From the IMG/VR virus record IMGVR_UViG_3300025789_000033: DNA of 20,000 nt, one strand, 5' to 3'. The DNA comes from an uncultured virus (IMG/VR IMGVR_UViG_3300025789_000033). Lineage: Duplodnaviria; Heunggongvirae; Uroviricota; Caudoviricetes. A program made the translations under genes and the position numbers. Below the pieces are notes generated by a model, which was not told the DNA's origin, searched no databases, and saw only the letters and a program-made list of their open reading frames with translations. Positions 4,982 through 14,965 of this stretch are shown here, one piece after another. Each line of letters opens with the position of its first letter. The first letter of the stretch is position 1.

Positions 4982-5545
4982 TTATTTATTTTCTAGACCA
5001 ATCCTACTTGAGATAATATTCCAGTTCATAATTTTCCACTGGTTATTGAGATATGATTTTTTGTCACTTCCGTAATCGAATTGAAACGAGTGTTCCCACC
5101 AATCAATTAAGAGTACAATATCCATCTTAATTTCGTGATTTTTAATAGTTTTAATCTTACCATCGCGAGCTAGATATACCCAACCACTGCCCTGTATTTT
5201 CATTGCTTCTTTTTCAAAAGCATCTGTAAACTTATCAAAAGTCCTAAAGTGTTTAGTGATAAACTCTCCAGCAGATCCGTCTGGTTCGTTTGATCTACTA
5301 GGTTTTTGAAACTGTGTAAAGTATATGTCGTGTAAGAACGCACCAGCTTCATTAAAATCAGCATCACCTTCACCGTCATTAAAACGGGTAACATAGGCTT
5401 TATATAACTTGCCATAATGATAGTTAATAGTATCCACACTCATACTAGGTTCTAGATCGTCCTTGGCATAGGGCAACTTGGTTTGAACTAGGGTTTTAGG
5501 ACTTTTACCTTCGTTTAGAGTGATATGCTTAATAAAGTTGTACAT
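4982..5545 (-). CDS. Fe/Mn superoxide dismutase family protein
   Basis: LPYAKDDLEP, NYHYGK, FLHDIYF, GSGWVYL and DWWEH motifs; the four metal ligands (H, H, D, H) are present. Confidence 0.92.
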   Translation of the reverse strand: MYNFIKHITLNEGKSPKTLVQTKLPYAKDDLEPSMSVDTINYHYGKLYKAYVTRFNDGEGDADFNEAGAFLHDIYFTQFQKPSRSNEPDGSAGEFITKHFRTFDKFTDAFEKEAMKIQGSGWVYLARDGKIKTIKNHEIKMDIVLLIDWWEHSFQFDYGSDKKSYLNNQWKIMNWNIISSRIGLENK

Positions 5546-5586: not shown

Positions 5587-5814
5587 ATGTTAAAATTTAT
5601 TAAAAGTTTTTTTGCTAAAAAACAAGCGGCAGTTGCAGAAGTGCCTTACAAGGTAGAAGTTGCTCCAGTAGTAGAACCAACACTAGTTGCAGTTCAAGCT
5701 ACAGAAGCAATGGTCGAATCAGTTGCACCTGCTAAAAAGCCACGTAAGCCTAAAGCAGAAAAAGCACCAGCTGTTAAAAAGCCACGTGCTCCAAAAACGC
5801 CTAAAGTAGTTTAA
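5587..5814 (+). CDS. Small Lys/Ala/Pro-rich basic protein
   Basis: 75 aa with an AGGAG RBS; C-terminal PAKKPRKPKAEKAPAVKKPRAPK tail of histone-H1-like composition. Confidence 0.75.
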   Translation: MLKFIKSFFAKKQAAVAEVPYKVEVAPVVEPTLVAVQATEAMVESVAPAKKPRKPKAEKAPAVKKPRAPKTPKVV

Positions 5815-6826
5815 GTTCTTTAGCCTGCTCATAAAGAGCAAAACTTGCAAGGTTTTTACCTTTGGATTCGCACATGATATCGTGCGAGTTTAAAAAGCTC
5901 AGAGCCCATTCGTTAGTACTTTTATTCCAATAGAAGTCAGAGTGTGCTCTGAGCTTTTGCTTTTTGTAACCTGCTGTTAATAGTTCAGCATGACGGGGCA
6001 TTATGCTAGTGTCATGATCCACGAGATAATCTTCACGAGATACTGAATAATGCATAGTAGGGCGCAAACCGCGCCAACTGTCCACGACACGCATAACACG
6101 ATGATCTTGGTTACTGATATATTCCCCTTCACGTATCCAATGATGGTGAATATCAAGCACAATAGGAACGATATCGCTAATAGTAAGACAGTCATCTAAC
6201 CCCCATGAGTTTTCTTCGTTTTCAATTGTAATACAGTTGCGGGCCTCTGGCGATAGTCGTTGGTACGCACGGCGGATACCATCTGGACCTTGTTTACCCG
6301 AGATGTGGACATTGATCTTAAAGTCTTGAAATGACTTACCGTAGCCCATGAACCTTGCCATATCTGCATGATATTCAAACTCCTCTATGGAGCGACCAAC
6401 AATGCCTGGATTATCACTTGCCAAGACAGTAAACTGACCAGGATGAAAAGACAACCTAACATTGTGCTTACGAGCAACATCACCCACTTCTCTAAAATGC
6501 CGCTCGCAGTAGGCCACGACGTCAGCACGATGCCAAAAATAACTCCAATCAGCTTGAGTATATACAGGTAAAATATCACTACTAATACGAACCATACGTA
6601 AATGTTCATTCAAAGTTCCTACTCTAGTTACAAGTTTTCGGGTAGATTCGATGTTCTGAACCATTAGGTCCCACAGTTTTTGTTCTGCTACTTCTTTAGT
6701 TTGGCGATTAAGCCAAGCTACTGTAGTACTGCCTGTGTTGTATTGTTTAGCATCGTCATTTTTGTCGATACCGTTAACCTGATGAGGATGGTCAATCCAT
6801 TTACATGCGAAGCCTATACGTTTCAT
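5801..6826 (-). CDS. uvsE: UV damage endonuclease (UvsE/UVDE)
   Basis: RIGFACK, RISSDILP, RLSFHPGQF, TIENEE, LDIHHH and AHSD motifs. The real start is likely ATG 6826 (MKRIGFACK), overlapping the upstream TAA. Confidence 0.92.
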   Translation of the reverse strand: MKRIGFACKWIDHPHQVNGIDKNDDAKQYNTGSTTVAWLNRQTKEVAEQKLWDLMVQNIESTRKLVTRVGTLNEHLRMVRISSDILPVYTQADWSYFWHRADVVAYCERHFREVGDVARKHNVRLSFHPGQFTVLASDNPGIVGRSIEEFEYHADMARFMGYGKSFQDFKINVHISGKQGPDGIRRAYQRLSPEARNCITIENEENSWGLDDCLTISDIVPIVLDIHHHWIREGEYISNQDHRVMRVVDSWRGLRPTMHYSVSREDYLVDHDTSIMPRHAELLTAGYKKQKLRAHSDFYWNKSTNEWALSFLNSHDIMCESKGKNLASFALYEQAKELKLL

Positions 6827-7008
6827 TACCAATGCCTTATGACGCCTGCGATTATAAAAGTGTTTGTAAGTACATATGATAACACAATTAGGGTACGAAT
6901 GCAAGCAATTCGGTCTGATTCTTTGTCCGTATTGCCTGCTTTCTCACCTAATGCTTTGGCCCAAATGCGCCAAAAATACTTAACCTTCGTATGTAGCCGA
7001 ATTAGCAC
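6826..7008 (-). CDS. Small predicted membrane protein (WRIWAKALGEK...IIAGVIRHW)
   Basis: Fills the queD-uvsE gap exactly, with its stop overlapping the uvsE ATG, and has a hydrophobic C-terminal segment. Start uncertain; the nearest in-frame GTG is at 7008, inside queD. Confidence 0.65.
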   Translation of the reverse strand: MLIRLHTKVKYFWRIWAKALGEKAGNTDKESDRIACIRTLIVLSYVLTNTFIIAGVIRHW

Positions 7009-7507
7009 CGTGTTCAAATACTTCAACTGATTTAATCCTAACGGTTGGATTGATTGGGTAACGCATATCACCAGACGCTAAAAGCTCAGCCATTTTGTCA
7101 TAGCACATTTTGGCAAACATTTCACAGCCTACTCCCGGTACAATGCGTAGATCACAGATACCTTGACGGCGGTATGGTTCAACTTGAACACGATCTGGAT
7201 TGCCATCGTGCTCTGGATTACTGCTCCAGCCTGACATTTCTTTAAAACGATCTAACATTGGATCATCTTCTGCAATAACCAATGTGTGATCGAACATAGA
7301 GTCTGCCCACGCTTTGAATTCTTTGAGTCCACCGAAGTCCATGCACCAGTTTTTATCATCTAGTGTGTCACATTCAAAGATTAGTTTAATACCAATTGAA
7401 TAACCATGCAATGTCGAGCAATGACTGTGTGTGGCACGCCATTGTCTAAAACAGCATGAAAGTCCGCGGTCATTACCGTATGTTTTTGTTGAGTAAAATT
7501 TTGCCAT
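6980..7507 (-). CDS. queD: Divergent 6-pyruvoyl-tetrahydropterin synthase / QueD family (T-fold) protein
   Basis: CSTLHGY, MDFGGLK, FDHT, CEMFAK and VEVFEH motifs; AGGAG RBS. Confidence 0.85.
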   Translation of the reverse strand: MAKFYSTKTYGNDRGLSCCFRQWRATHSHCSTLHGYSIGIKLIFECDTLDDKNWCMDFGGLKEFKAWADSMFDHTLVIAEDDPMLDRFKEMSGWSSNPEHDGNPDRVQVEPYRRQGICDLRIVPGVGCEMFAKMCYDKMAELLASGDMRYPINPTVRIKSVEVFEHGANSATYEG

Positions 7508-7577
7508 TGTTATCTCCTAAAAGTAGCAATGACATGCAGAGTTTATATTGCGGGATGAATGCCTAAGTCCGCATATA
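7502..7577 (-). ncRNA. Candidate cis-regulatory RNA (preQ1-I-like H-type pseudoknot) in the queD leader
   Basis: UGCGG/CCGCA stem, loop ending CAUC, A-rich linker AUAUAAAC, loop GGCAU complementary to downstream AUGUC, and an alternative helix UGUCAUUG/CAAUGGCA over the start codon. Confidence 0.5.
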
Positions 7578-7580
7578 GTA

Positions 7581-7608
7581 ATTATACACTTTTATAGTGT
7601 AAGGTCAA
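7581..7608 (-). promoter_or_regulatory. Sigma70-like promoter for queD-orf-uvsE
   Basis: TTGACC-16 nt-TATAAT; a TACACT-n5-AGTGTA inverted repeat spans the spacer and overlaps the -10. Confidence 0.7.
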
Positions 7609-7610
7609 TG

Positions 7611-9632
7611 TTATTGGTTAGCAATCATTCCAAACCCTAACCACTGACCAGGGTTACCAGCAACAGTACATACCCATCCAACATAGCTATTGGCAGTCGG
7701 CGCAGTATTCCAGCAAATATCGCCAGCATTATAAGTACCGCTTGTTGGAGATGATGTATTATTAGTAAATCGCTTGTTGCCAAGGCTAACATCACCGTTC
7801 ACAGCAAAACTTAAACTTGGATCAGGGTTATTAACACCTACTGTTAGTGCGCCAAATACTTTAACAGTTTTGCGTGTGTTGGATTTGTCACCTAACACAA
7901 TTTGATTCATATCACTGCTTAAGATGTTAGTCTGTTGGTTAGTGATGGAAACAATTCCGCCGAAGTTAATGTTAGAAGTTGTAATATCAACACTGTTTGT
8001 ACCGTCATTCAACAACAACGATTTAACTTTAACATTGCCTTGACTTGCATCTACATCGTTGCTAAATGTGCTTGGACCTGTAACGGTTAGTGATTCTAAT
8101 GATCCAACAGTGGTTAAGCTACTAGTAACAATGCTTGATCCTAATCCAGTGCTAGTAATAACACTTCGTCCACCGATCAAATAACTTTGATCAGAGTGTA
8201 GGTCTAAACTTTCGCTACTATACAATCTATCAGGGCCAGCCATCATAATCAGCTGTCTAGGCGCACCCGTTCCGGACCACACTAATCCTAATCCGTAGAT
8301 ACTAGTATCACTAGTTGCTTGGAATTGTAATGGGCTAGTTCTATCAATTCTAGTATCTGCTACTAGGTTACTAACATTCAATGTACCGTAAATATTTACA
8401 ACCGCATTTTGTCCAGCGGCATTTCCAAAGTTAACTTCTCCACTATTTTTTACAGTAATACGTGCAATATTGTCTGTAGTAATTTCAAGATCGTGACTAC
8501 TGTGAGTTCCGATCGAAGCTACATTAGTTCGTGGACTGCCAATTCCAATTTCAACATTGTTATCAACAATACTAAAACTTGCATTAGGCTCGTCTGTGCC
8601 AATACCGATTCTGTTATAGGTACTGTTAATAAAGACAAACTCACTAAGTGTAACGTCACCTGATACTGCTAGACTTTCTAGTGTACCTATTGTTCTTAAA
8701 CTACTGTTGACAATAGTTGAACCTAAAGTGCCGTTAGATAATACAGGCACATTGTCAATTCTAAAACTAGCATTTACATCTAAATCAAAATTGGCATTAG
8801 TCCATAATCTAGAACCATTACGATAAACCAGCATGTTATCACTAGTGCCAGTTACCCAATGTATACCCTGTCCATTTAACTGCTGTTCAGTGTTGGCAGT
8901 GAAGTTGCCTAGCTCAAAAGCCGCACCCGATTCTGTAATTACTTGGCTAGCTTTAATAGTTTGAGCTGTTAGGGTTCCAGTGATAGTCACAGGACCATCG
9001 ATCTCAACACTGTTATTAAATTTAGTAAGTCCGTTAATCTCAGTAGCACCGTCAACTGTCAACGCCTGTAGTCTACCTAGAGTCTTTAAGTTACTGCCAG
9101 TAACACCTACGCCTAATGCTGTTTGTGATAGAACCGGTGATCCGCTGATATAATAGCTTTGGTCTACACCTAAATCAAGTTCTATAGTAGATGCTAGTCT
9201 GCCGTTTTTGTAAAGTAGTGAACTTACAACACTCGGCCCAACTTTCCAAACGAGACCCTTGCCATTTAAATCAGCATTTTGCATGCCTGTAAATGTTAAT
9301 GGCTCTCTAGTTTCTTGTGTTACATCTGCAATTAAATTAGCAACAGTAATTGTATTTGCAACAATGTTGCCAGATATAATTAAATCTTTAAGGAATCTAG
9401 TGTCTTCAGAAACACTAATAGTTCCATCTACAGTTAAGTTTCCAGCAACTTGTACGTTACCGTCAAGTTTTTTAGTTCTAATAGTATCAACAGTAGCCAT
9501 GCCGTTAGACACGATAAGACTAGTTTGACTAGCTAAATCTTGTATACCGGTGCTTTGGAATTGTGTGATTACACCGCCGGAAACTTTGTTTCCACTTATA
9601 GAACCGTCTGGGATAATTGTATTGTCAGCCAT
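7611..9632 (-). CDS. Tail fibre-like structural protein with three internal repeats
   Basis: 673 aa, rich in G/S/T/N/V, with SSLTTVGSLESLTV-type repeats, an RIGIGTDEP fibre motif and a C-terminal PTSGTYNAGDICWN...GWVC...W module typical of phage tail proteins. Confidence 0.75.
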   Translation of the reverse strand: MADNTIIPDGSISGNKVSGGVITQFQSTGIQDLASQTSLIVSNGMATVDTIRTKKLDGNVQVAGNLTVDGTISVSEDTRFLKDLIISGNIVANTITVANLIADVTQETREPLTFTGMQNADLNGKGLVWKVGPSVVSSLLYKNGRLASTIELDLGVDQSYYISGSPVLSQTALGVGVTGSNLKTLGRLQALTVDGATEINGLTKFNNSVEIDGPVTITGTLTAQTIKASQVITESGAAFELGNFTANTEQQLNGQGIHWVTGTSDNMLVYRNGSRLWTNANFDLDVNASFRIDNVPVLSNGTLGSTIVNSSLRTIGTLESLAVSGDVTLSEFVFINSTYNRIGIGTDEPNASFSIVDNNVEIGIGSPRTNVASIGTHSSHDLEITTDNIARITVKNSGEVNFGNAAGQNAVVNIYGTLNVSNLVADTRIDRTSPLQFQATSDTSIYGLGLVWSGTGAPRQLIMMAGPDRLYSSESLDLHSDQSYLIGGRSVITSTGLGSSIVTSSLTTVGSLESLTVTGPSTFSNDVDASQGNVKVKSLLLNDGTNSVDITTSNINFGGIVSITNQQTNILSSDMNQIVLGDKSNTRKTVKVFGALTVGVNNPDPSLSFAVNGDVSLGNKRFTNNTSSPTSGTYNAGDICWNTAPTANSYVGWVCTVAGNPGQWLGFGMIANQ
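8076..9269 (-). repeat. Three ~75-aa repeats in the fibre protein
   Basis: GxGxxW...DL...(Y/F)xIxxxxV...LG...SxLxTxGxLxxLxVxG at ~9269-9048, ~8879-8658 and ~8300-8076. Confidence 0.8.
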
Positions 9633-9666
9633 GGATAAACACTCTCTTTTGAGTATTTATCCACGG
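9629..9666 (-). promoter_or_regulatory. 16-bp hairpin containing a TAAATA late-promoter motif in the 5' arm and the start codon in the 3' arm
   Basis: CCGUGGAUAAAUACUC-AAAAGA-GAGUGUUUAUCCAUGG, with two G-U pairs; TAAATA at 9654-9659. Confidence 0.75.
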
Positions 9667-9674
9667 ACTAGGAC

Positions 9675-10877
9675 TTAGTTAGATGCTTTAAGAATAATGA
9701 TTTCTTCGTTTAAACGACCATTTAGGCGTGTATCAGTGGCATTAATCTCATCTAAGAACTTACGCAACTGTATCTTACCTGCCGCTTTAAACTCTTTGAG
9801 CTTTTCTTCTGGCTTGCGTAGTGTCTTCTGTACGCTGGTAGTTTCGTTGAAACCAGTAATACTCGCACCCTTAACACCTAGTTCTTTATATTCTTCTGCA
9901 ATATATCGTCCTAGCTTACGACTTTTCGTGTTATAAGTCCACACTTCTTTAGCACCGATAATATCAGTAGGATTGATACTAACAAGTTTCAATGGCTCGC
10001 ATGATTTCATGTACTTGAGTTTAGCAACAATCTTTTCTTTAGGTTGTGATTTTTTAGCACGAGGAGCACGATTAACTTTGGCTTCTTGAGCCAGCATGTC
10101 GCATGCACTTGAAATTTCTTGATAGAAAGCAATTAAGTTACGAATTTGCTTTTTAGTACGATGACTGTATGCTTCTTTCAATTGCTCATCAGCATTACCG
10201 CTAGCAAGCTCTTCAAGCTCAGCTAAATCTCTGGCATACAAGTTTTTAATAATACGAGCATGCGCGGCTTTAACGTCCTTACCCTTGAGCAAGTTAAGTA
10301 CTTTGAACGCTTTTGGATCAAAGTTTTCTGGATCTGTTTGGAAACCTTCAATAGCATCTTCCAATTCTTCAGTCATGCGATATGATGCTTCACGTACACG
10401 TTCTTGAATTGAAGGTTGAACAACTGTAGGCTTTGCGGCTTCTGCAGCCTTAGCATCATCTTCGTCAATGTCATTTTTACCATCTGCGATGACCTGCACA
10501 ATTTGTCCACGCAACCAAGCAGATGTATCACGTCCGTCATTAAAGTCTGCACGAACTGCGGGCATGCCGCGAAGCAAACAACTAGCAATAGCACCCATTG
10601 TAGTGTTGCAACGATTGTCTTTGGTTTTCTTAAAAGCGGCAATGTCTTCTTTAGCACAGCCTACAGTAGTCATCCATTTAAGTACCGCAGGTTTTAGATC
10701 CTTACCGTTAAATTCTAAACGGTAGTATTCCATGGCGTGATGCCAATGACGCAAAAATTGATTTGCATCCATTTGTTCAACATTGTCCCACACGGGGCTG
10801 TGATCCTTAGCCGCTTTGGTACGATGAGCAGTTACCTGCTTTTTAGTAACTCGAGTTTTGGTTGCTACTTTAGCCAT
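9675..10877 (-). CDS. Hypothetical phage protein (400 aa, charged, likely helical; probable early gene)
   Basis: Long ORF with an AGGAG RBS and a consensus sigma70 promoter; no recognisable catalytic motif. Confidence 0.85.
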   Translation of the reverse strand: MAKVATKTRVTKKQVTAHRTKAAKDHSPVWDNVEQMDANQFLRHWHHAMEYYRLEFNGKDLKPAVLKWMTTVGCAKEDIAAFKKTKDNRCNTTMGAIASCLLRGMPAVRADFNDGRDTSAWLRGQIVQVIADGKNDIDEDDAKAAEAAKPTVVQPSIQERVREASYRMTEELEDAIEGFQTDPENFDPKAFKVLNLLKGKDVKAAHARIIKNLYARDLAELEELASGNADEQLKEAYSHRTKKQIRNLIAFYQEISSACDMLAQEAKVNRAPRAKKSQPKEKIVAKLKYMKSCEPLKLVSINPTDIIGAKEVWTYNTKSRKLGRYIAEEYKELGVKGASITGFNETTSVQKTLRKPEEKLKEFKAAGKIQLRKFLDEINATDTRLNGRLNEEIIILKASN

Positions 10878-10937: not shown

Positions 10938-11845
10938 CCTAAAGATCTATTTAAAATTTTGGTTTTTATACCTTCGCCCAGCCTTTCAGCAGTTCGACAG
11001 TTCCATTTTTCACCAAAATGCATAACATCTCGAGCCAAATTCTCAGGTAACATTTCCCCTTTAGAAATATCTGCCCAAATTATATCGTCAAAAGTGATGT
11101 TCAATTGCTGTTCCCACATTGTATCATAAGTCCAATTATATACAGGAATATCAGCCAGTCTCCATAGCGACATAGTTGAATGGTACATCATTAAAGAATT
11201 ATACTCGTCTGCTTTATGTTTAACCATCATGTTGTAGAATGTAGATAAGTAGGGCTCGCCTTCATGCAGGTCCCATGGGCCGAGCATTCCACTTTTTTCT
11301 AAACTTTTATACATCATTCTGCTAGGGTCGGGCCATTGTATAATTACAAATTTTGGTCTAATACTAGTTGAGTTTTTTAAAAATAATAATGAGTTTAGAT
11401 AAACCAATTCAGCACTTCCACCACCCTTGGCATGATTAATCACAGGCATATTTAATTTTTCACTTAGAATGGTTGACCACATTTCATCTTCAGCTAGCCC
11501 TTCCCCTTCAGTAAAACTACAACCAAAGACCATAAAGAAATTACCATCAGTTACTTCAGATAATTCCTTACTTCTATAACCTAATTTATTACGAGTATAG
11601 GTAATTTTTTTAGTAGCATACTTCCAAGTAGGTCCCATCTTTTCTAAATTTACTGAGTCATAAAGTTTTTTACTGTCAACACCTGACCATTCATATACTA
11701 GGTCGCCATTTGGGTTGTACGGTGGAGGAAAGGCTACAGCAATTCCGTTATAATTATCAACTTGATTGATAAATTTATCTTCAAATCCAGGATGATGATC
11801 ACGGTGATTAGCCGGGTTATCCATGTTTACTTCGTCTTTAATCAT
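10934..11845 (-). CDS. SGNH/GDSL-like hydrolase or acyltransferase-fold protein
   Basis: FGCSFTEG (block I with GCS), INHAKGGGS, VIIQWP and C-terminal RDVMHFG (DxxH). Confidence 0.7.
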   Translation of the reverse strand: MIKDEVNMDNPANHRDHHPGFEDKFINQVDNYNGIAVAFPPPYNPNGDLVYEWSGVDSKKLYDSVNLEKMGPTWKYATKKITYTRNKLGYRSKELSEVTDGNFFMVFGCSFTEGEGLAEDEMWSTILSEKLNMPVINHAKGGGSAELVYLNSLLFLKNSTSIRPKFVIIQWPDPSRMMYKSLEKSGMLGPWDLHEGEPYLSTFYNMMVKHKADEYNSLMMYHSTMSLWRLADIPVYNWTYDTMWEQQLNITFDDIIWADISKGEMLPENLARDVMHFGEKWNCRTAERLGEGIKTKILNRSLG

Positions 11846-13202
11846 TCACTAATTCCTTGCATGTTTGATAAAAATTATTCATTTCTGGAAATGTTTTTAT
11901 AAAATCAGTGTTACGTCTAGAATCGTGCTCATTAAACCAAGCATAAAAATCATTTCTTCCTGTATTTAAAGTTTCTTGAGAATATGTTGTAGTTTCCATA
12001 TAATCAACTACTCTTCGAAATTTTTCATATTCTAATTCTGAAAATTTATCACTTGCATGCCCAAGATTATCTTTTATAAAATTTAAACTAGTATGCATAT
12101 ATGGCATGAACTCTTCTTTGGGAAGAATGTTTATATCATATTGCAAGGGTTCTTTAAGATAAGGAGTGTCAAATCTAATTCTATGCTGTTCAAGTTGCGG
12201 ATACCATCCATATAGTCTACGCCATTCTAACAATTTTTCTAATAGAGTCTTAAACCCAGTCACTGATAACGCATTAAATGTTATCATAAATGTAATTGGA
12301 TTTTTAGTTTTCAACATGTATGTGTGAAAATTGTATTCCCAAGACTTTAAGTCTAAACCTGTTCGAATATATTCTGCAGGAGCACCCCAGGTATCTAAAC
12401 TAGTAAACAGTTTAAATCCTTTAATCTTTTTTTCAAGTCTAAGTTTTTCAACTTTTTCAGCCAGTCGTTCAACTAGAATAGGCTTAACGCCTAGGTTACT
12501 GTTAATATTTAATTCTAAGTTTGGCAAAGGATTACGATCCAAATCTTCTAATAATCGCCAAGTTGATTTTTGTAATAATGGCTCGCCACCTGTAATACGT
12601 AAAATGTTTAGTGTCTTGCTAACAGTTGGCCACCATTTCCACCATGCTTCTACATATGGGTTTGTTTCTTCATCATATATAACCAATTTGTCAATACCAA
12701 AATAATGATTCTTAACAGGATACGGACCGTGTTCTTTGATTTCTTTATAGTAGGCGCTTGATGCTTTAGGATGACAGTACCCGCATTTGAAATTACATTC
12801 GTTGCCAAACGACACTTCAATATATTCAGGATTAACATTAAAGTCTGGACCTTCTGCAACAATTTCGTTAAGGCGGCTTTCTGTGTATATACTAGCATTG
12901 CGCTCATGTCGGTCGCTAATATAGTCTTCGCCTAGTGCTTCAATATTCCAACAGTATTGGCATCCACTAGGCTTCTCGCCGTTTAACATTTCTAAACGTT
13001 GAGTTTTCTTTTCATTTGTATTATGAATAGCACTAGGATTAAATTTAATCTCATCTAACGGAATAGTATGCGGGGCAGGGTGATAACAACTATGTGTTTC
13101 ACCTGACTGCAAATAGATAGTAGTATGATGCCATTTAGCAAGACAGAATGTTTTACTAACTGTATCGGTTATATCTTTTATTTCAAATATCTTTTGTTTC
13201 AT
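11838..13202 (-). CDS. Radical SAM protein with N-terminal twitch/SPASM-like Cys cluster
   Basis: CNFKCGYC (CxxxCxxC), TGGEPLL and INSNL; N-terminal CLAKW...SCYHP...CQYCW. Confidence 0.9.
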   Translation of the reverse strand: MKQKIFEIKDITDTVSKTFCLAKWHHTTIYLQSGETHSCYHPAPHTIPLDEIKFNPSAIHNTNEKKTQRLEMLNGEKPSGCQYCWNIEALGEDYISDRHERNASIYTESRLNEIVAEGPDFNVNPEYIEVSFGNECNFKCGYCHPKASSAYYKEIKEHGPYPVKNHYFGIDKLVIYDEETNPYVEAWWKWWPTVSKTLNILRITGGEPLLQKSTWRLLEDLDRNPLPNLELNINSNLGVKPILVERLAEKVEKLRLEKKIKGFKLFTSLDTWGAPAEYIRTGLDLKSWEYNFHTYMLKTKNPITFMITFNALSVTGFKTLLEKLLEWRRLYGWYPQLEQHRIRFDTPYLKEPLQYDINILPKEEFMPYMHTSLNFIKDNLGHASDKFSELEYEKFRRVVDYMETTTYSQETLNTGRNDFYAWFNEHDSRRNTDFIKTFPEMNNFYQTCKELVND

Positions 13203-13774
13203 TTATCTTTCATAATATAGTGTACACCGATGCTTATCCGTAATGGACTATTCTTAGGTGCTTCAGCTTTATGATGAATATTCGCCGGAAACAAAACTGC
13301 TCTGCCTTTTTTGTACTGACATCTAAAGATTTCAGTTTTATGATCAGTGTCGTAAAACACTGTGTCACCGTCACTATCATTTACATAGTAAACTAGTACC
13401 CAGGCAATCGGATCTGGATAATCAATATGAGGATTAAGATCAAACCCTCGTAAGGTTCCATTAAACCGCACCCGTGCTAGTCTAACTACTTCTAAGTCCG
13501 GCAACGCTTTAGGTATTACATCAATAGTTAGCGCATCATTTATTAACTTGTTGATACTGTGAAACTCGTTAACTTCTCGATTGGTCAAATCAAATGTTAT
13601 ATAGCTCAATGCCCATTCTTTTCCAGCATCATGCATTGCATCAATTTCAATCCAACTCCATGGGATGCCCTTACTAATTTTTTCTATGTAAGTTTCAAAC
13701 CATGGTGGGAATATATCATCAAGTACGATAATTTTACTAGTATCTACTTCGTCTTTTAATTTTCTTAGGTCCAT
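13199..13774 (-). CDS. 2OG-Fe(II) oxygenase superfamily protein
   Basis: HID...YYVNDSDGDT...H...RIS: an HxD...H triad plus the 2OG-binding RxS. Confidence 0.88.
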   Translation of the reverse strand: MDLRKLKDEVDTSKIIVLDDIFPPWFETYIEKISKGIPWSWIEIDAMHDAGKEWALSYITFDLTNREVNEFHSINKLINDALTIDVIPKALPDLEVVRLARVRFNGTLRGFDLNPHIDYPDPIAWVLVYYVNDSDGDTVFYDTDHKTEIFRCQYKKGRAVLFPANIHHKAEAPKNSPLRISIGVHYIMKDK

Positions 13775-14596: not shown

Positions 14597-14965
14597 TTAT
14601 TCCTTAATAAATTGTGCCAGCTGTGGAGGTTCCCAGCCCACAGGCTTCAATACCTTACCATCTTCACGCTTTCGTACTTTACCTGTATCTTTATCAATCT
14701 TAGCAAAGTTAGTACGCATTACTTCTTTCCAACCACCTTCTGCATCAAACCCTGCTGAATGAATAGCACCAATAGTAACAACTAATATGTCAATCAGCGC
14801 ATCTAACGTTTCAACTTGATCATTATTATTAATAGCTTCTTTGAGCTCTTTAAATTCTTCGTCAATTAAATTAACATATAATTTAAATTGATTGTGATTA
14901 AAACCTTCAACTGATTGGTCACATGCCCGCATAAATTTTTCTTGATCACGAAATGGATTTGTCAT
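14597..14965 (-). CDS. MazG-like / all-alpha NTP pyrophosphohydrolase
   Basis: LIDEEFKEL...ETLDALIDILVV...EVMRTNFAK...REDGKVLKP pattern. Confidence 0.85.
   Translation of the reverse strand: MTNPFRDQEKFMRACDQSVEGFNHNQFKLYVNLIDEEFKELKEAINNNDQVETLDALIDILVVTIGAIHSAGFDAEGGWKEVMRTNFAKIDKDTGKVRKREDGKVLKPVGWEPPQLAQFIKE

What the first reader, a model, noticed from the sequence alone, without database searches (positions are those of the whole stretch)
7502..7608. Candidate phage riboswitch: variant preQ1-I-like pseudoknot with an expression platform upstream of queD
Seen: a ~100-nt intergenic gap, long for this tightly packed window, with a TTGACC-16-TATAAT promoter. The predicted +1 (~7574) falls right at the start of AUGCGG-ACUUAGGCAUUCAUC-CCGCA-AUAUAAAC-UCUGC-AUGUC-AUUGCUACUUUU-AGGAG-AUAACA-AUG. 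UGCGG/CCGCA form P1, and loop GGCAU (7563-7559) can pair with AUGUC (7535-7531) as an H-type pseudoknot. A mutually exclusive 8-bp helix UGUCAUUG (7534-7527)/CAAUGGCA (7509-7502) covers the AUG and encloses the SD. Known: class I preQ1 riboswitches have a 5-bp P1 ending GG, a loop often ending CAUC-CC and an A-rich 3' tail, and they control que genes. Here the usual UUC after GG is missing and the loop and tail are longer. Inference: a variant aptamer (preQ1, preQ0, a pterin or another guanine-derived ligand), or a protein-binding site, acting as a translational ON switch when the pseudoknot forms.
Basis: partly seen in the sequence, partly recalled or inferred. Interest (0 to 1): 0.85.

Follow-up and report, generated by a model that had tools for sequence, protein, structure and literature searches.

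The report
Phage queD-leader pseudoknot riboswitch candidate
The short leader before this uncultured lake phage's queD-like gene folds into a small RNA pseudoknot that hundreds of uncultured phages keep through compensating base changes; it resembles the smallest preQ1 riboswitch, is in no RNA catalogue, and seems wired to switch translation on.

Summary
Window 7573-7531 (- strand) encodes an H-type pseudoknot: P1 UGCGG/CCGCA, P2 GGCAU/AUGUC. A competing 8-bp helix (7534-7527 with 7509-7502) covers the start codon.

Relatives support the structure. In 102 aligned phage leaders, 92.1% of pair cells are paired (70.9% shuffled; 29-51% slid). Ten of 12 pairs change on both sides. Seventeen loop positions are fixed in at least 100 of 101 rows.

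The strand after the fixed UCUGC pairs with the AUG or Shine-Dalgarno region in 122 of 124 unique leaders, through several platform designs. The base after CAU covaries with position -1 of the AUG in 69 of 71. Forming the knot should therefore free the start site: an ON switch.

The motif sits almost only before PTPS/QueD-family genes (76 of 80 pattern hits), once per jumbo-phage record. No Rfam 15 model reaches gathering, and RF00522 misses it.

It shares the closing G-C pair, the specificity-type C and the A-rich tail of preQ1-I, but not L1, the UCUGC or the OFF wiring. The ligand is untested. Relatives carry FolE, a QueE-like gene and a phosphoribosyltransferase, but no clear QueC or TGT/DpdA.

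Earlier agents of this scan noted the same motif on other genomes.

The parts
7603..7608 (-). -35 hexamer TTGACC of the leader's own promoter
   Evidence: 11 of 12 with the -10, spacer 16. The same arrangement stands in many class-A relatives.
7581..7586 (-). -10 hexamer TATAAT. The predicted start near 7574 lies just before P1.
   Evidence: In 42 of 124 unique leaders a sigma-70-like promoter lies upstream of P1, and 23 of them have 7 nt between the -10 and P1. The start itself is not mapped.
7569..7573 (-). P1 5' strand UGCGG; its last G is invariant
   Evidence: P1 98.6% paired; 4 of 5 pairs change on both sides; closing G-C in 102 of 102.
7564..7568 (-). L1 ACUUA, with invariant C7567 and U7566
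   Evidence: C and U in 101 of 101; the first base varies.
7559..7563 (-). P2 5' strand GGCAU
   Evidence: P2 86% paired; 6 of 7 pairs change on both sides.
7554..7558 (-). L2 UCAUC. C7554, next to P1, sits where preQ1-I has its specificity base.
   Evidence: U, C, A and the final C each in 100 of 101; the fourth base is U 75, C 16, A 9. Review PMC11625349, sections 4 and 8.
7549..7553 (-). P1 3' strand CCGCA
7541..7548 (-). A-rich tail AUAUAAAC, always 8 nt, with invariant A at positions 3, 5 and 7
7536..7540 (-). Invariant UCUGC between the tail and P2; no pairing partner found
   Evidence: 101 of 101 at each of the five positions. The rows from L081 onward were found with a pattern that holds these letters; the 52 unique leaders found by protein keep them too.
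7531..7535 (-). P2 3' strand AUGUC, the switching strand shared with the alternative helix
7527..7534 (-). 5' arm of the start-codon-sequestering helix, UGUCAUUG
   Evidence: part of the minimum-free-energy fold; covariation.
7514..7518 (-). Shine-Dalgarno AGGAG, enclosed by the sequestering helix
7502..7509 (-). 3' arm of the sequestering helix, CAAUGGCA, holding the AUG (7507-7505)
6980..7507 (-). Regulated gene: PTPS/QueD-family protein of 175 aa with a CxxxHGY motif
   Evidence: Pfam PF01242 at 5.4e-16. phrog_2389 at 4e-36. NCBIfam QueD TIGR03367 at 35 bits, below its cut-off of 89. Nearest solved chain 7v0f_A, E 0.0017.

Best explanation
The leader RNA of the phage's queD-like gene is a two-state translational switch.

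OFF state: P1 forms, and the strand just after the fixed UCUGC pairs with the start-codon region, enclosing the Shine-Dalgarno sequence. This is the lower-energy nested fold of the window's leader.

ON state: the same strand pairs with the P1 loop to close a compact H-type pseudoknot. The knot has a 5-bp P1 and a 5-bp P2 (up to 7 bp in relatives). Its loops are L1 N-C-U, L2 UCAHC, an 8-nt A-rich tail and UCUGC. This frees the ribosome-binding site.

The fixed loop bases most likely form a pocket for a small molecule with a guanine-like face: a 7-deazaguanine, a pterin such as the enzyme's substrate, or a related purine. The pocket would be built much like that of preQ1-I riboswitches. Binding would stabilise the knot and switch translation on.

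Shown here: both helices, their mutual exclusion, the conservation and the gene association. Inferred: that a ligand rather than a protein tips the balance, what the ligand is, and the direction of the response in vivo.
For: Structure. P1 and P2 covary: 92.1% of cells are paired against 70.9% in shuffles and 29-51% when slid. Ten of 12 pairs change on both sides, and 0 of 500 shuffles reach the covariation score.

Geometry. P1 is always 5 bp and the tail always 8 nt plus UCUGC. Seventeen unpaired or closing positions are fixed in at least 100 of 101 rows.

Switch.
- In 122 of 124 unique leaders, the fold of the platform pairs at least 3 of the 6 bases after UCUGC with the AUG region (85) or the SD region (38).
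- In 123 of 124 the AUG is fully paired or at least 3 of 4 SD bases are.
- The platforms differ in design: an AUG helix with ..CAUUG/CAAUG.., an AUG helix with ..CAUC/GAUG.., an SD hairpin CCUAUG/CAUAGG, or direct pairing to GGAGAC. All use the same strand.
- The base after CAU pairs with position -1 of the AUG in 69 of 71 (C-G 40, U-A 28, A-U 1). The base before CAU pairs with +4 in 68 of 71.

Specific gene link.
- 76 of 80 pattern hits precede a PTPS/QueD homologue. One more is a cut ORF of the same kind and 3 are chance hits.
- By protein-first sampling, the motif stands before 79 of 79, 74 of 75 and 25 of 38 genes of three PTPS subfamilies.
- There is one strong copy per jumbo-phage record, 59-62 bits, with the next hit at 18 bits.

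Pocket-like features shared with preQ1-I as described in PMC11625349, sections 4 and 8: an invariant closing G-C, an invariant C just before the P1 3' strand that is preceded by U or A in 84 of 100, and an A-rich L3.
Against: - No binding of any ligand was or could be tested.
- RF00522 gives no hit at the motif, even at E up to 10 per record.
- L1 lacks the uridine that follows P1 in preQ1-I. The fixed UCUGC is not among the class I features given in the review sections read.
- An ON switch on a biosynthetic gene is unusual for an end-product sensor.
- The window's leader folds no better than shuffles (z -1.27).
- The swap test is only moderate. Own partners are more stable than foreign ones: P2 -5.24 against -3.64 kcal/mol, alternative helix -9.24 against -7.32. 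But a median of 17% and 31% of foreign partners do as well. One cause is that there are few distinct strand variants, 32 for P2b.
- Rows L081-L160 were found with a pattern that fixes part of the motif, so invariance there is partly by construction.
- Related sequences inflate shuffle controls.
- Eight cultured phages with the gene have no leader at all, so the control is dispensable.
Confidence: 0.6

Rival explanations
1. A protein-operated translational operator. A phage or host protein binds the pseudoknot or the alternative fold and sets translation. It could be the QueD-like enzyme itself, or a RegA- or gp32-like repressor. The parallel is the T4 gene 32 leader pseudoknot (recalled, not tested).
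For: - The setting is a phage, and the element is an H-type pseudoknot at the 5' end of a leader.
- There is one regulated gene per genome.
- No known ligand class fits cleanly.
- The fixed UCUGC could be a protein contact.
Against: - The motif is kept, with the same loop letters, before PTPS proteins that have diverged greatly. Three subfamilies score phmmer E from 1e-13 to 1e-112 against the window's protein.
- It occurs on contigs from 4 kb to 380 kb.
- Autoregulation by so divergent a protein would predict co-variation of RNA loops and protein, which is not seen.
- The closing G-C, the adjacent C and the A-rich tail match a known small-molecule pocket plan.
Confidence: 0.15
2. A ligand-free structural element. 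The two folds would set a fixed or temperature-, Mg- or kinetics-dependent translation level. For example, the knot could form co-transcriptionally and hold the site open for a time. No specific effector would be involved.
For: - Both folds exist and compete.
- Folding energy is ordinary.
- Some phages do without the element.
Against: Seventeen fixed loop or closing positions, and fixed loop lengths over hundreds of divergent copies, are far more than helix competition needs. The platforms vary freely while the knot's loops do not.
Confidence: 0.1
3. An ordinary member of the preQ1-I family (RF00522) that binds preQ1 and turns the gene off.
For: - The gene is of the que pathway family.
- The fold is an H-type knot with a 5-bp P1 closed by G-C, a C before the P1 3' strand and an A-rich tail (review).
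Against: - RF00522 does not hit the motif in the window.
- It does not hit the motif in five relatives at E up to 10. The 22 weak hits, best 13.8 bits against a cut-off of 39, all lie elsewhere.
- No Rfam family reaches gathering in 20 diverse loci.
- P2 does not hold the SD. Its 3' strand instead competes with a helix that hides the SD or AUG, which is the opposite wiring.
- L1 and the UCUGC differ.
Confidence: 0.03

Closest known systems
preQ1-I riboswitch (Rfam RF00522; types I-III, as described in review PMC11625349, of which I read the abstract and sections 4 and 8)
   Same: - A small H-type pseudoknot in a 5' leader.
- A 5-bp P1 closed by a conserved G-C pair.
- A conserved C directly 5' of the P1 3' strand, preceded by U or A.
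- An A-rich L3 after P1.
- A link to a gene of the GTP-to-7-deazaguanine route.
- Translational control through P2.
   Different: - The RF00522 model does not recognise it.
- L1 is N-C-U(U/C) instead of a U directly after P1.
- P2 is 4-7 bp and does not contain the SD.
- A fixed UCUGC lies between the tail and P2.
- The P2 3' strand alternates with a helix that hides the SD or AUG, so knot formation should turn the gene ON, not OFF.
- It was found on phage contigs only. One of 80 examined hits in cellular genome assemblies was genuine, and that lies on a 5.5-kb contig of a metagenome bin.
- The review text holds no mention of phage or queD.
preQ1-II and preQ1-III riboswitches (RF01054, RF02680; review sections listed, section 8 read)
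   Same: Pseudoknotted sensors of a 7-deazaguanine that act on translation.
   Different: They are HLout pseudoknots about twice the size or more, with a different recognition mode. Neither model reaches gathering score in the window or in 20 diverse loci, nor E 10 in window 7400-7700.
ON riboswitches on enzymes that consume or respond to the ligand, e.g. adenine (add), glycine (gcvT), ZTP, PRPP (recalled from general knowledge, not tested)
   Same: The logic: ligand binding frees the ribosome-binding site or prevents termination, so the gene is made when the compound is present.
   Different: The folds are unrelated. Here the ligand is unknown.
T4 gene 32 leader pseudoknot (autoregulatory protein site; recalled, not tested)
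   Same: A phage H-type pseudoknot at the 5' end of an mRNA leader that controls translation.
   Different: It works by cooperative protein binding and is not linked to a metabolic gene. There is no evidence of a protein partner here.
freshwater-2 RNA (RF02980)
   Same: The only Rfam model with any score on this leader (15.8 bits, E 4.4). It occurs in the same group of lake jumbo phages.
   Different: The weak score comes from the promoter-spacer hairpin and the SD/AUG. Good copies lie at other loci of the relatives: 60 bits (over the 49.9-bit cut-off) in G001, then 48, 36 and 29.6 bits (below it) in G002-G004. It is a different RNA.

Membership tests
preQ1-I riboswitch (RF00522) | Scores at or above the family's gathering score with the Rfam covariance model | tested here: not met
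   No match at gathering in the window. None at E up to 10 in 7400-7700. In five related records, 22 weak hits (best 13.8 bits, cut-off 39), none at the motif. Nothing at gathering in 20 diverse loci.
preQ1-I riboswitch (RF00522) | H-type pseudoknot of P1 and P2 | tested here: met
   P1 98.6% and P2 86% of cells paired. Ten of 12 pairs change on both sides. Slid controls give 29-51%.
preQ1-I riboswitch (RF00522) | Conserved G-C pair closing P1 (the pocket floor) | tested here: met
   G-C in 102 of 102 rows. Feature taken from the review, sections 4 and 8.
preQ1-I riboswitch (RF00522) | Specificity cytosine directly 5' of the P1 3' strand, preceded by U (type I) or A (types II, III) | tested here: met
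   C in 100 of 101 rows. The base before it is U 75, C 16, A 9. Whether it reads a ligand is untested.
preQ1-I riboswitch (RF00522) | Uridine in L1 directly after the P1 5' strand (U6), part of ligand recognition | tested here: not met
   The first L1 base is A 39, U 32, C 30 of 101. It is followed by an invariant C and U.
preQ1-I riboswitch (RF00522) | A-rich L3 running from P1 straight into the P2 3' strand | tested here: inconclusive
   The 8-nt tail has invariant A at positions 3, 5 and 7, but a fixed UCUGC follows before P2. I could not see the review's consensus figure.
preQ1-I riboswitch (RF00522) | P2 buries SD bases, so the ligand turns the gene off | tested here: not met
   The SD lies 13 nt or more downstream of P2. 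The P2 3' strand competes with a helix that hides the AUG or SD in 122 of 124 leaders.
preQ1-I riboswitch (RF00522) | Binds preQ1 (or preQ0) specifically | not testable with these tools
   Needs in-line probing or ITC.
Riboswitch (general) | A conserved aptamer joined to a variable expression platform, with mutually exclusive folds, in a 5' leader | tested here: met
Riboswitch (general) | Direct binding of a small molecule changes the fold and the expression | not testable with these tools
freshwater-2 RNA (RF02980) | Scores at or above gathering (49.9 bits) | tested here: not met
   15.8 bits on the window leader. The strongest matches, one of them over the cut-off, lie at other loci of the relatives.
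QueD / PTPS (COG0720), the regulated gene | Matches family models; CxxxHGH zinc/catalytic motif (motif recalled from memory) | tested here: inconclusive
   PF01242 is over its cut-off and phrog_2389 scores 4e-36. NCBIfam QueD scores 35 bits against a cut-off of 89. The motif reads CxxxHGY in all 15 proteins inspected. Activity is untested.

The most novel reading that the evidence does not exclude
This would be a riboswitch class of its own, found so far only in phages. It would read a guanine-faced heterocycle and feed the signal forward. The ligand could be 7,8-dihydroneopterin triphosphate made by the phage's FolE, which is the QueD substrate, or a 7-deazapurine intermediate such as 7-carboxy-7-deazaguanine. 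Translation of the QueD-like enzyme would switch on only when the compound is there.

The pathway it serves would not be the usual QueC/DpdA route of DNA base exchange. It would be a FolE - QueD - QueE - phosphoribosyltransferase route to a 7-deazapurine nucleotide. That chemistry is recalled from the tubercidin and toyocamycin pathways and was not tested. If so, these lake phages make a modified nucleotide before replication.
Probability: 0.25. Interest if true: 0.9.

Novelty: new variant of a known kind. Interest (0 to 1): 0.8.

Why it matters
If a ligand is confirmed, this would be a widespread riboswitch class known so far only from viruses, and I recall none described. It would also reverse the wiring of the smallest known riboswitch fold, from OFF to ON.

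It offers a roughly 45-nt natural aptamer with fixed geometry. It would also give a direct handle on an unexplored phage pathway that starts from GTP.

The several independent platform designs on one aptamer make a clean natural experiment on how pseudoknot switches are wired.

The motif is abundant. The protein scans found 347 relatives of the window's gene and at least 596 of a second subfamily in IMG/VR. Nearly all sampled loci carry the motif.

My literature searches found no description of it. The library lacks most subscription journals, and I saw no supplements.

Tried and rejected
- **Own genome.** None is held for this window.
- **Cultured phages by DNA.** blastn of 1 kb around the leader found only short coding matches in three Pseudomonas phages. 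blastn of three leader types found noise only.
- **Cultured phages by protein.** tblastn with three PTPS types found 105, 105 and 78 records, all under 60% identity. Eight were fetched: pf16, RHph_I1_18, ACP17, X1, R5C, Mendera, BUCT-ZZ01 and Pan1. In seven the gene abuts or overlaps the gene before it, and X1 has a 30-nt gap. The model finds nothing there, best 11.3 bits. No cultured carrier was found.
- **Cellular genomes.** One of the 80 is a true copy (L288, 42.7 bits). The rest score 21.2 bits or less, which the pattern itself explains.
- **Other regulated genes.** I looked for a wider regulon in five jumbo-phage records and found none; FolE is not preceded by the motif. Of the radical-SAM relatives of the L011 gene, only the identical L338/L339 carry the extra copy. 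L340 has the motif only before the following gene.
- **UCUGC partner.** GCGGA/UCUGC pairing appears in the window's centroid fold, but it cannot hold where P1 is GAGG, GUGG or GUCG. Rejected.
- **Short ORFs in the leader.** AUG-CGG-ACU-UAG, and the AUG inside P2, are not conserved in other classes. Rejected.
- **RNA evidence.** Four lake metatranscriptome runs hold contigs 90-95% alike over 7430-7663, reaching upstream of the -35. They are contigs from relatives and may include DNA. They show no start, end or strand, so they say nothing on the transcription start.
- A second covariance model with P2 as structure, and the metagenome scan.
Full report
**What is in the window**

All sizeable genes in the window lie on the - strand, and the content is that of a large phage. 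It includes tail-fibre-like proteins, a prohead protease, a DNA ligase, MazG, a UvdE endonuclease, an Fe/Mn superoxide dismutase, a twitch radical-SAM protein and a 2OG-Fe(II) oxygenase. No whole genome is held for it. GenBank phages share only a 78-nt coding match.

The gene after the finding, 6980-7507 (-), belongs to the PTPS/QueD family:
- PF01242, E 5.4e-16.
- phrog_2389, 'QueD-like', E 4e-36.
- NCBIfam QueD at only 35 bits against a cut-off of 89.
- Nearest solved chain 7v0f_A, E 0.0017.

**The observation**

- The gap is 103 nt (7508-7610).
- TTGACC-16-TATAAT (7608-7581) matches 11 of 12 positions. It is the best promoter-like site within 6500-10000, although such sites are not enriched there.
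- P1 is 7573-7569 with 7553-7549.
- P2 is 7563-7559 with 7535-7531.
- The competing helix is 7534-7527 with 7509-7502.

The nested minimum-free-energy fold of the leader is P1 plus the competing helix, at -15.2 kcal/mol. The z-score of -1.27 shows that energy alone proves nothing.

**Relatives**

A protein scan of IMG/VR with the QueD-like protein found 347 relatives, of which the best 80 were kept (80-97% identity). Of the 79 with upstream DNA, all carry the same leader motif. One of them, L007, has a G in place of the closing-pair C.

Of the 80 fetched:
- 77 are real copies.
- 76 of these precede a PTPS/QueD homologue (phmmer E 1e-13 to 1e-112).
- One more precedes a cut ORF of the same type.
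- 3 are chance hits without P1.

Together this gives 157 copies and 111 distinct cores.

Protein-first sampling of two other PTPS subfamilies is free of the pattern's bias:
- 25 of 38 carry it at 36 bits or more, plus two weaker hits. The 11 without any hit include the most distant, at 49-71% identity.

**Structure**

A covariance model (R1) was built from 111 sequences with P1 as its structure. It scores the window at 63.2 bits, with nothing else above 6.6 bits.

On its alignment of 102 hits I counted P1 and P2 together:

| Measure | Result |
|---|---|
| Cells paired | 92.1% |
| Cells paired, shuffled | 70.9% |
| Cells paired, partners slid | 29-51% |
| Pairs with changes on both sides | 10 of 12 |
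| Shuffles reaching the covariation score | 0 of 500 |
| P1 cells paired | 98.6% |
| P2 cells paired | 86% (some rows are out of register by one base) |

P1 shows C-G, A-U and U-A at its middle pair, and its closing G-C is present in 102 of 102 rows.

Shuffles ignore relatedness, so these figures overstate independence. The slid controls keep relatedness.

Loop lengths are rigid, and 17 loop or closing positions are fixed in at least 100 of 101 rows:
- the closing G and C
- C-U in L1
- U-C-A and the last C of L2
- three alternate A in the tail
- UCUGC

About half of these rows were found with a pattern that holds many of these letters. The 52 unique protein-found leaders show the same letters.

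**The switch**

In 124 unique leaders, I folded the stretch from UCUGC to 12 nt past the start on its own.
- In 122, at least 3 of the 6 bases after UCUGC pair with the AUG region (85) or the SD region (38).
- In 123, the AUG is fully paired or at least 3 of 4 SD bases are.

The designs differ:
- ..CAUUG.. with ..CAAUGGCA, as in the window.
- ..CAUC(AAACUU).. with ..GAUGGC.
- Short forms such as AAGUCAUC with GAUGACUU, where the protein starts M-T-Y.
- A hairpin CCUAUG..CAUAGG that takes in the SD.
- Direct pairing of UGUCUU with GGAGACA.

Among the 71 leaders with CAU in this strand:
- The next base pairs with position -1 of the AUG in 69 (C-G 40, U-A 28, A-U 1).
- The base before pairs with +4 in 68.

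So one strand pairs in turn with the P1 loop and with the start region, and both pairings are kept by compensating change.

A partner-swap test agrees, but only moderately. Own partners average -5.24 against -3.64 kcal/mol for P2, and -9.24 against -7.32 for the alternative helix.

There is no U-rich terminator in the leaders, so the control should be translational. Knot formation should free the start site, which makes this an ON switch. The direction is inferred from structure, not measured.

**Promoter and start**

A sigma-70-like promoter stands upstream of P1 in 42 of 124 unique leaders. In 23 of these, 7 nt separate the -10 from P1.

Lake metatranscriptome contigs of relatives cover the leader. 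Being contigs, they say nothing about ends.

**Comparison with what is known**

- No Rfam 15 family reaches its gathering score in the window or in 20 diverse loci.
- In 7400-7700 the only matches at E up to 10 are noise. One is freshwater-2 at 15.8 bits against 49.9.
- RF00522 run alone over five related records gives 22 weak hits, none at the motif.

I read the abstract and sections 4 and 8 of the review PMC11625349.
- Shared with class I: the H-type fold, the closing G-C floor, the C next to the P1 3' strand preceded by U or A, and the A-rich L3.
- Not shared: the U directly after P1 in L1, any counterpart of UCUGC, and burial of the SD in P2.

The review text has no occurrence of 'phage' or 'queD'.

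The motif therefore works like a preQ1-I-type knot but fails the family's model and two of its defining features. I file it as a new variant, not as a member.

Five literature searches found no description of such a leader. The library lacks most subscription journals, and I opened no supplements.

Eight earlier notes of this scan, on other genomes, reach the same reading. I re-derived each point here.

**Context that bears on the ligand**

In five related records, three of them 98-100% complete jumbo phages:

| Gene | Result |
|---|---|
| FolE | 5 of 5 over the cut-off |
| QueE model | matches radical-SAM ORFs of 285-302 aa in 5 of 5, below the cut-off |
| QueC | at best a partial match (1 of 5 over the cut-off, 65 of 210 positions) |
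| TGT/DpdA (PF01702) | 0 of 5 |

One of the QueE-like ORFs hits the PHROG 'QueE-like' family at 2e-48. It lies near FolE and a phosphoribosyltransferase.

Each record has exactly one strong copy of the motif, before the PTPS gene. FolE has none.

The same gene set, QueE - phosphoribosyltransferase - QueD - FolE, is annotated in Synechococcus phage BUCT-ZZ01. A phosphoribosyltransferase also sits beside the radical-SAM/PTPS pair in L011.

This argues against a simple 'preQ1 end-product' logic. It leaves open a 7-deazapurine intermediate, the pterin substrate, or another guanine-faced compound. ON switches usually answer to a compound that the enzyme uses or removes (general knowledge), which favours the substrate or an upstream signal. 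This last step is inference.

**Distribution**

- In cellular genome assemblies, 1 of 80 examined pattern hits is genuine. It lies on a 5.5-kb contig of a metagenome bin, before the same gene, so it is probably phage DNA.
- All eight cultured phages examined lack a leader before the gene, and the model finds nothing.
- DNA runs holding the stretch are labelled freshwater metagenomes.

**Verdict**

This is a real, abundant, uncatalogued pseudoknot leader with two covarying, mutually exclusive folds.

It is most likely a translational ON riboswitch for an unidentified guanine-faced ligand (0.6). The rivals are a protein-operated switch (0.15) and a ligand-free element (0.1).

Noticed in passing
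L011:1345-1396 (identical in L012, L338, L339): A second full copy of the motif (50.6 bits) lies 1.6 kb upstream of the queD copy. It stands before a 312-aa radical-SAM gene that starts with TTG. Its platform hairpin is kept, but the SD is replaced by an A-rich run. A phosphoribosyltransferase gene precedes it. In the 72%-identical relative L340 the radical-SAM gene has no such copy.
   Followed up: partly
L092:192-225: A degenerate copy (25.1 bits) has UUCGC in place of UCUGC and 4 of 5 P1 pairs. It stands before a 309-aa class I methyltransferase gene that lies directly upstream of the regular motif and the PTPS gene. It could be a decayed duplicate or a variant.
   Followed up: partly
G001:C1:171875-171946 (L353:476-547); also G002:91516-91585, G003:222546-222615, G004:187533-187591: Good matches to the Rfam freshwater-2 RNA (60 bits, over the 49.9-bit cut-off, in G001; 48, 36 and 29.6 bits, below it, in the others) lie in the related jumbo phages, far from the queD leader. 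In G001 the match stands directly before a 135-aa ORF of no known family, followed by a virion structural gene. This metagenome-derived family may therefore be a phage leader.
   Followed up: partly
window 7585-7601 (-): Inverted repeat TACACT-N5-AGTGTA fills the promoter spacer and overlaps the -10. Some relatives keep it with compensating changes (TACGCT/AGCGTA in L040, ACGC/GCGT in L073); others do not (L014, L047). It could be an operator, or a weak end-of-gene hairpin for the tail-fibre gene.
   Followed up: no
L352 (G003:C1:144000-158000): FolE, a cupin or cysteine-dioxygenase-like protein, a phosphoribosyltransferase and a QueE-like radical-SAM gene lie within 6 kb, about 50 kb from the motif-bearing queD-like gene. 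Neither a clear QueC nor any TGT/DpdA was found in the five records. The set recalls routes to 7-deazapurine nucleosides rather than DNA base exchange (recalled, untested).
   Followed up: partly
window 6980-7507 (-) and the PTPS genes of L081, L082, L083, L087, L092, L094, L098, L103, L116, L128, L131, L148, L152, L158: All 15 inspected proteins read C-x3-H-G-Y where I recall C-x3-H-G-H in bacterial QueD. The His that I recall as the first zinc ligand is not evident either. The cultured-phage homologues are annotated QueD-like.
   Followed up: no
L074, codon 6 of the queD-like gene: An in-frame TAA follows ATGGCAAAATTTTAC while the leader motif is intact. This is a broken gene or an assembly error.
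   Followed up: no
window 4982-5545, 5801-6829, 11838-13202, 13199-13774, 14597-14965 (-): The window carries an Fe/Mn superoxide dismutase, a UvdE UV endonuclease, a twitch-domain radical-SAM protein (NF033640, 325 bits), a 2OG-Fe(II) oxygenase and a MazG-like pyrophosphatase. This is a rich set of auxiliary genes for a lake phage.
   Followed up: no
window 5587-5814 (+): This is the only sizeable ORF on the + strand in an otherwise one-stranded region: 75 aa, rich in A/P/K repeats (..KKPRKPKAEKAPAVKKPRAPKTPKVV). It lies in the 255-nt gap between the SOD and UvdE genes.
   Followed up: no
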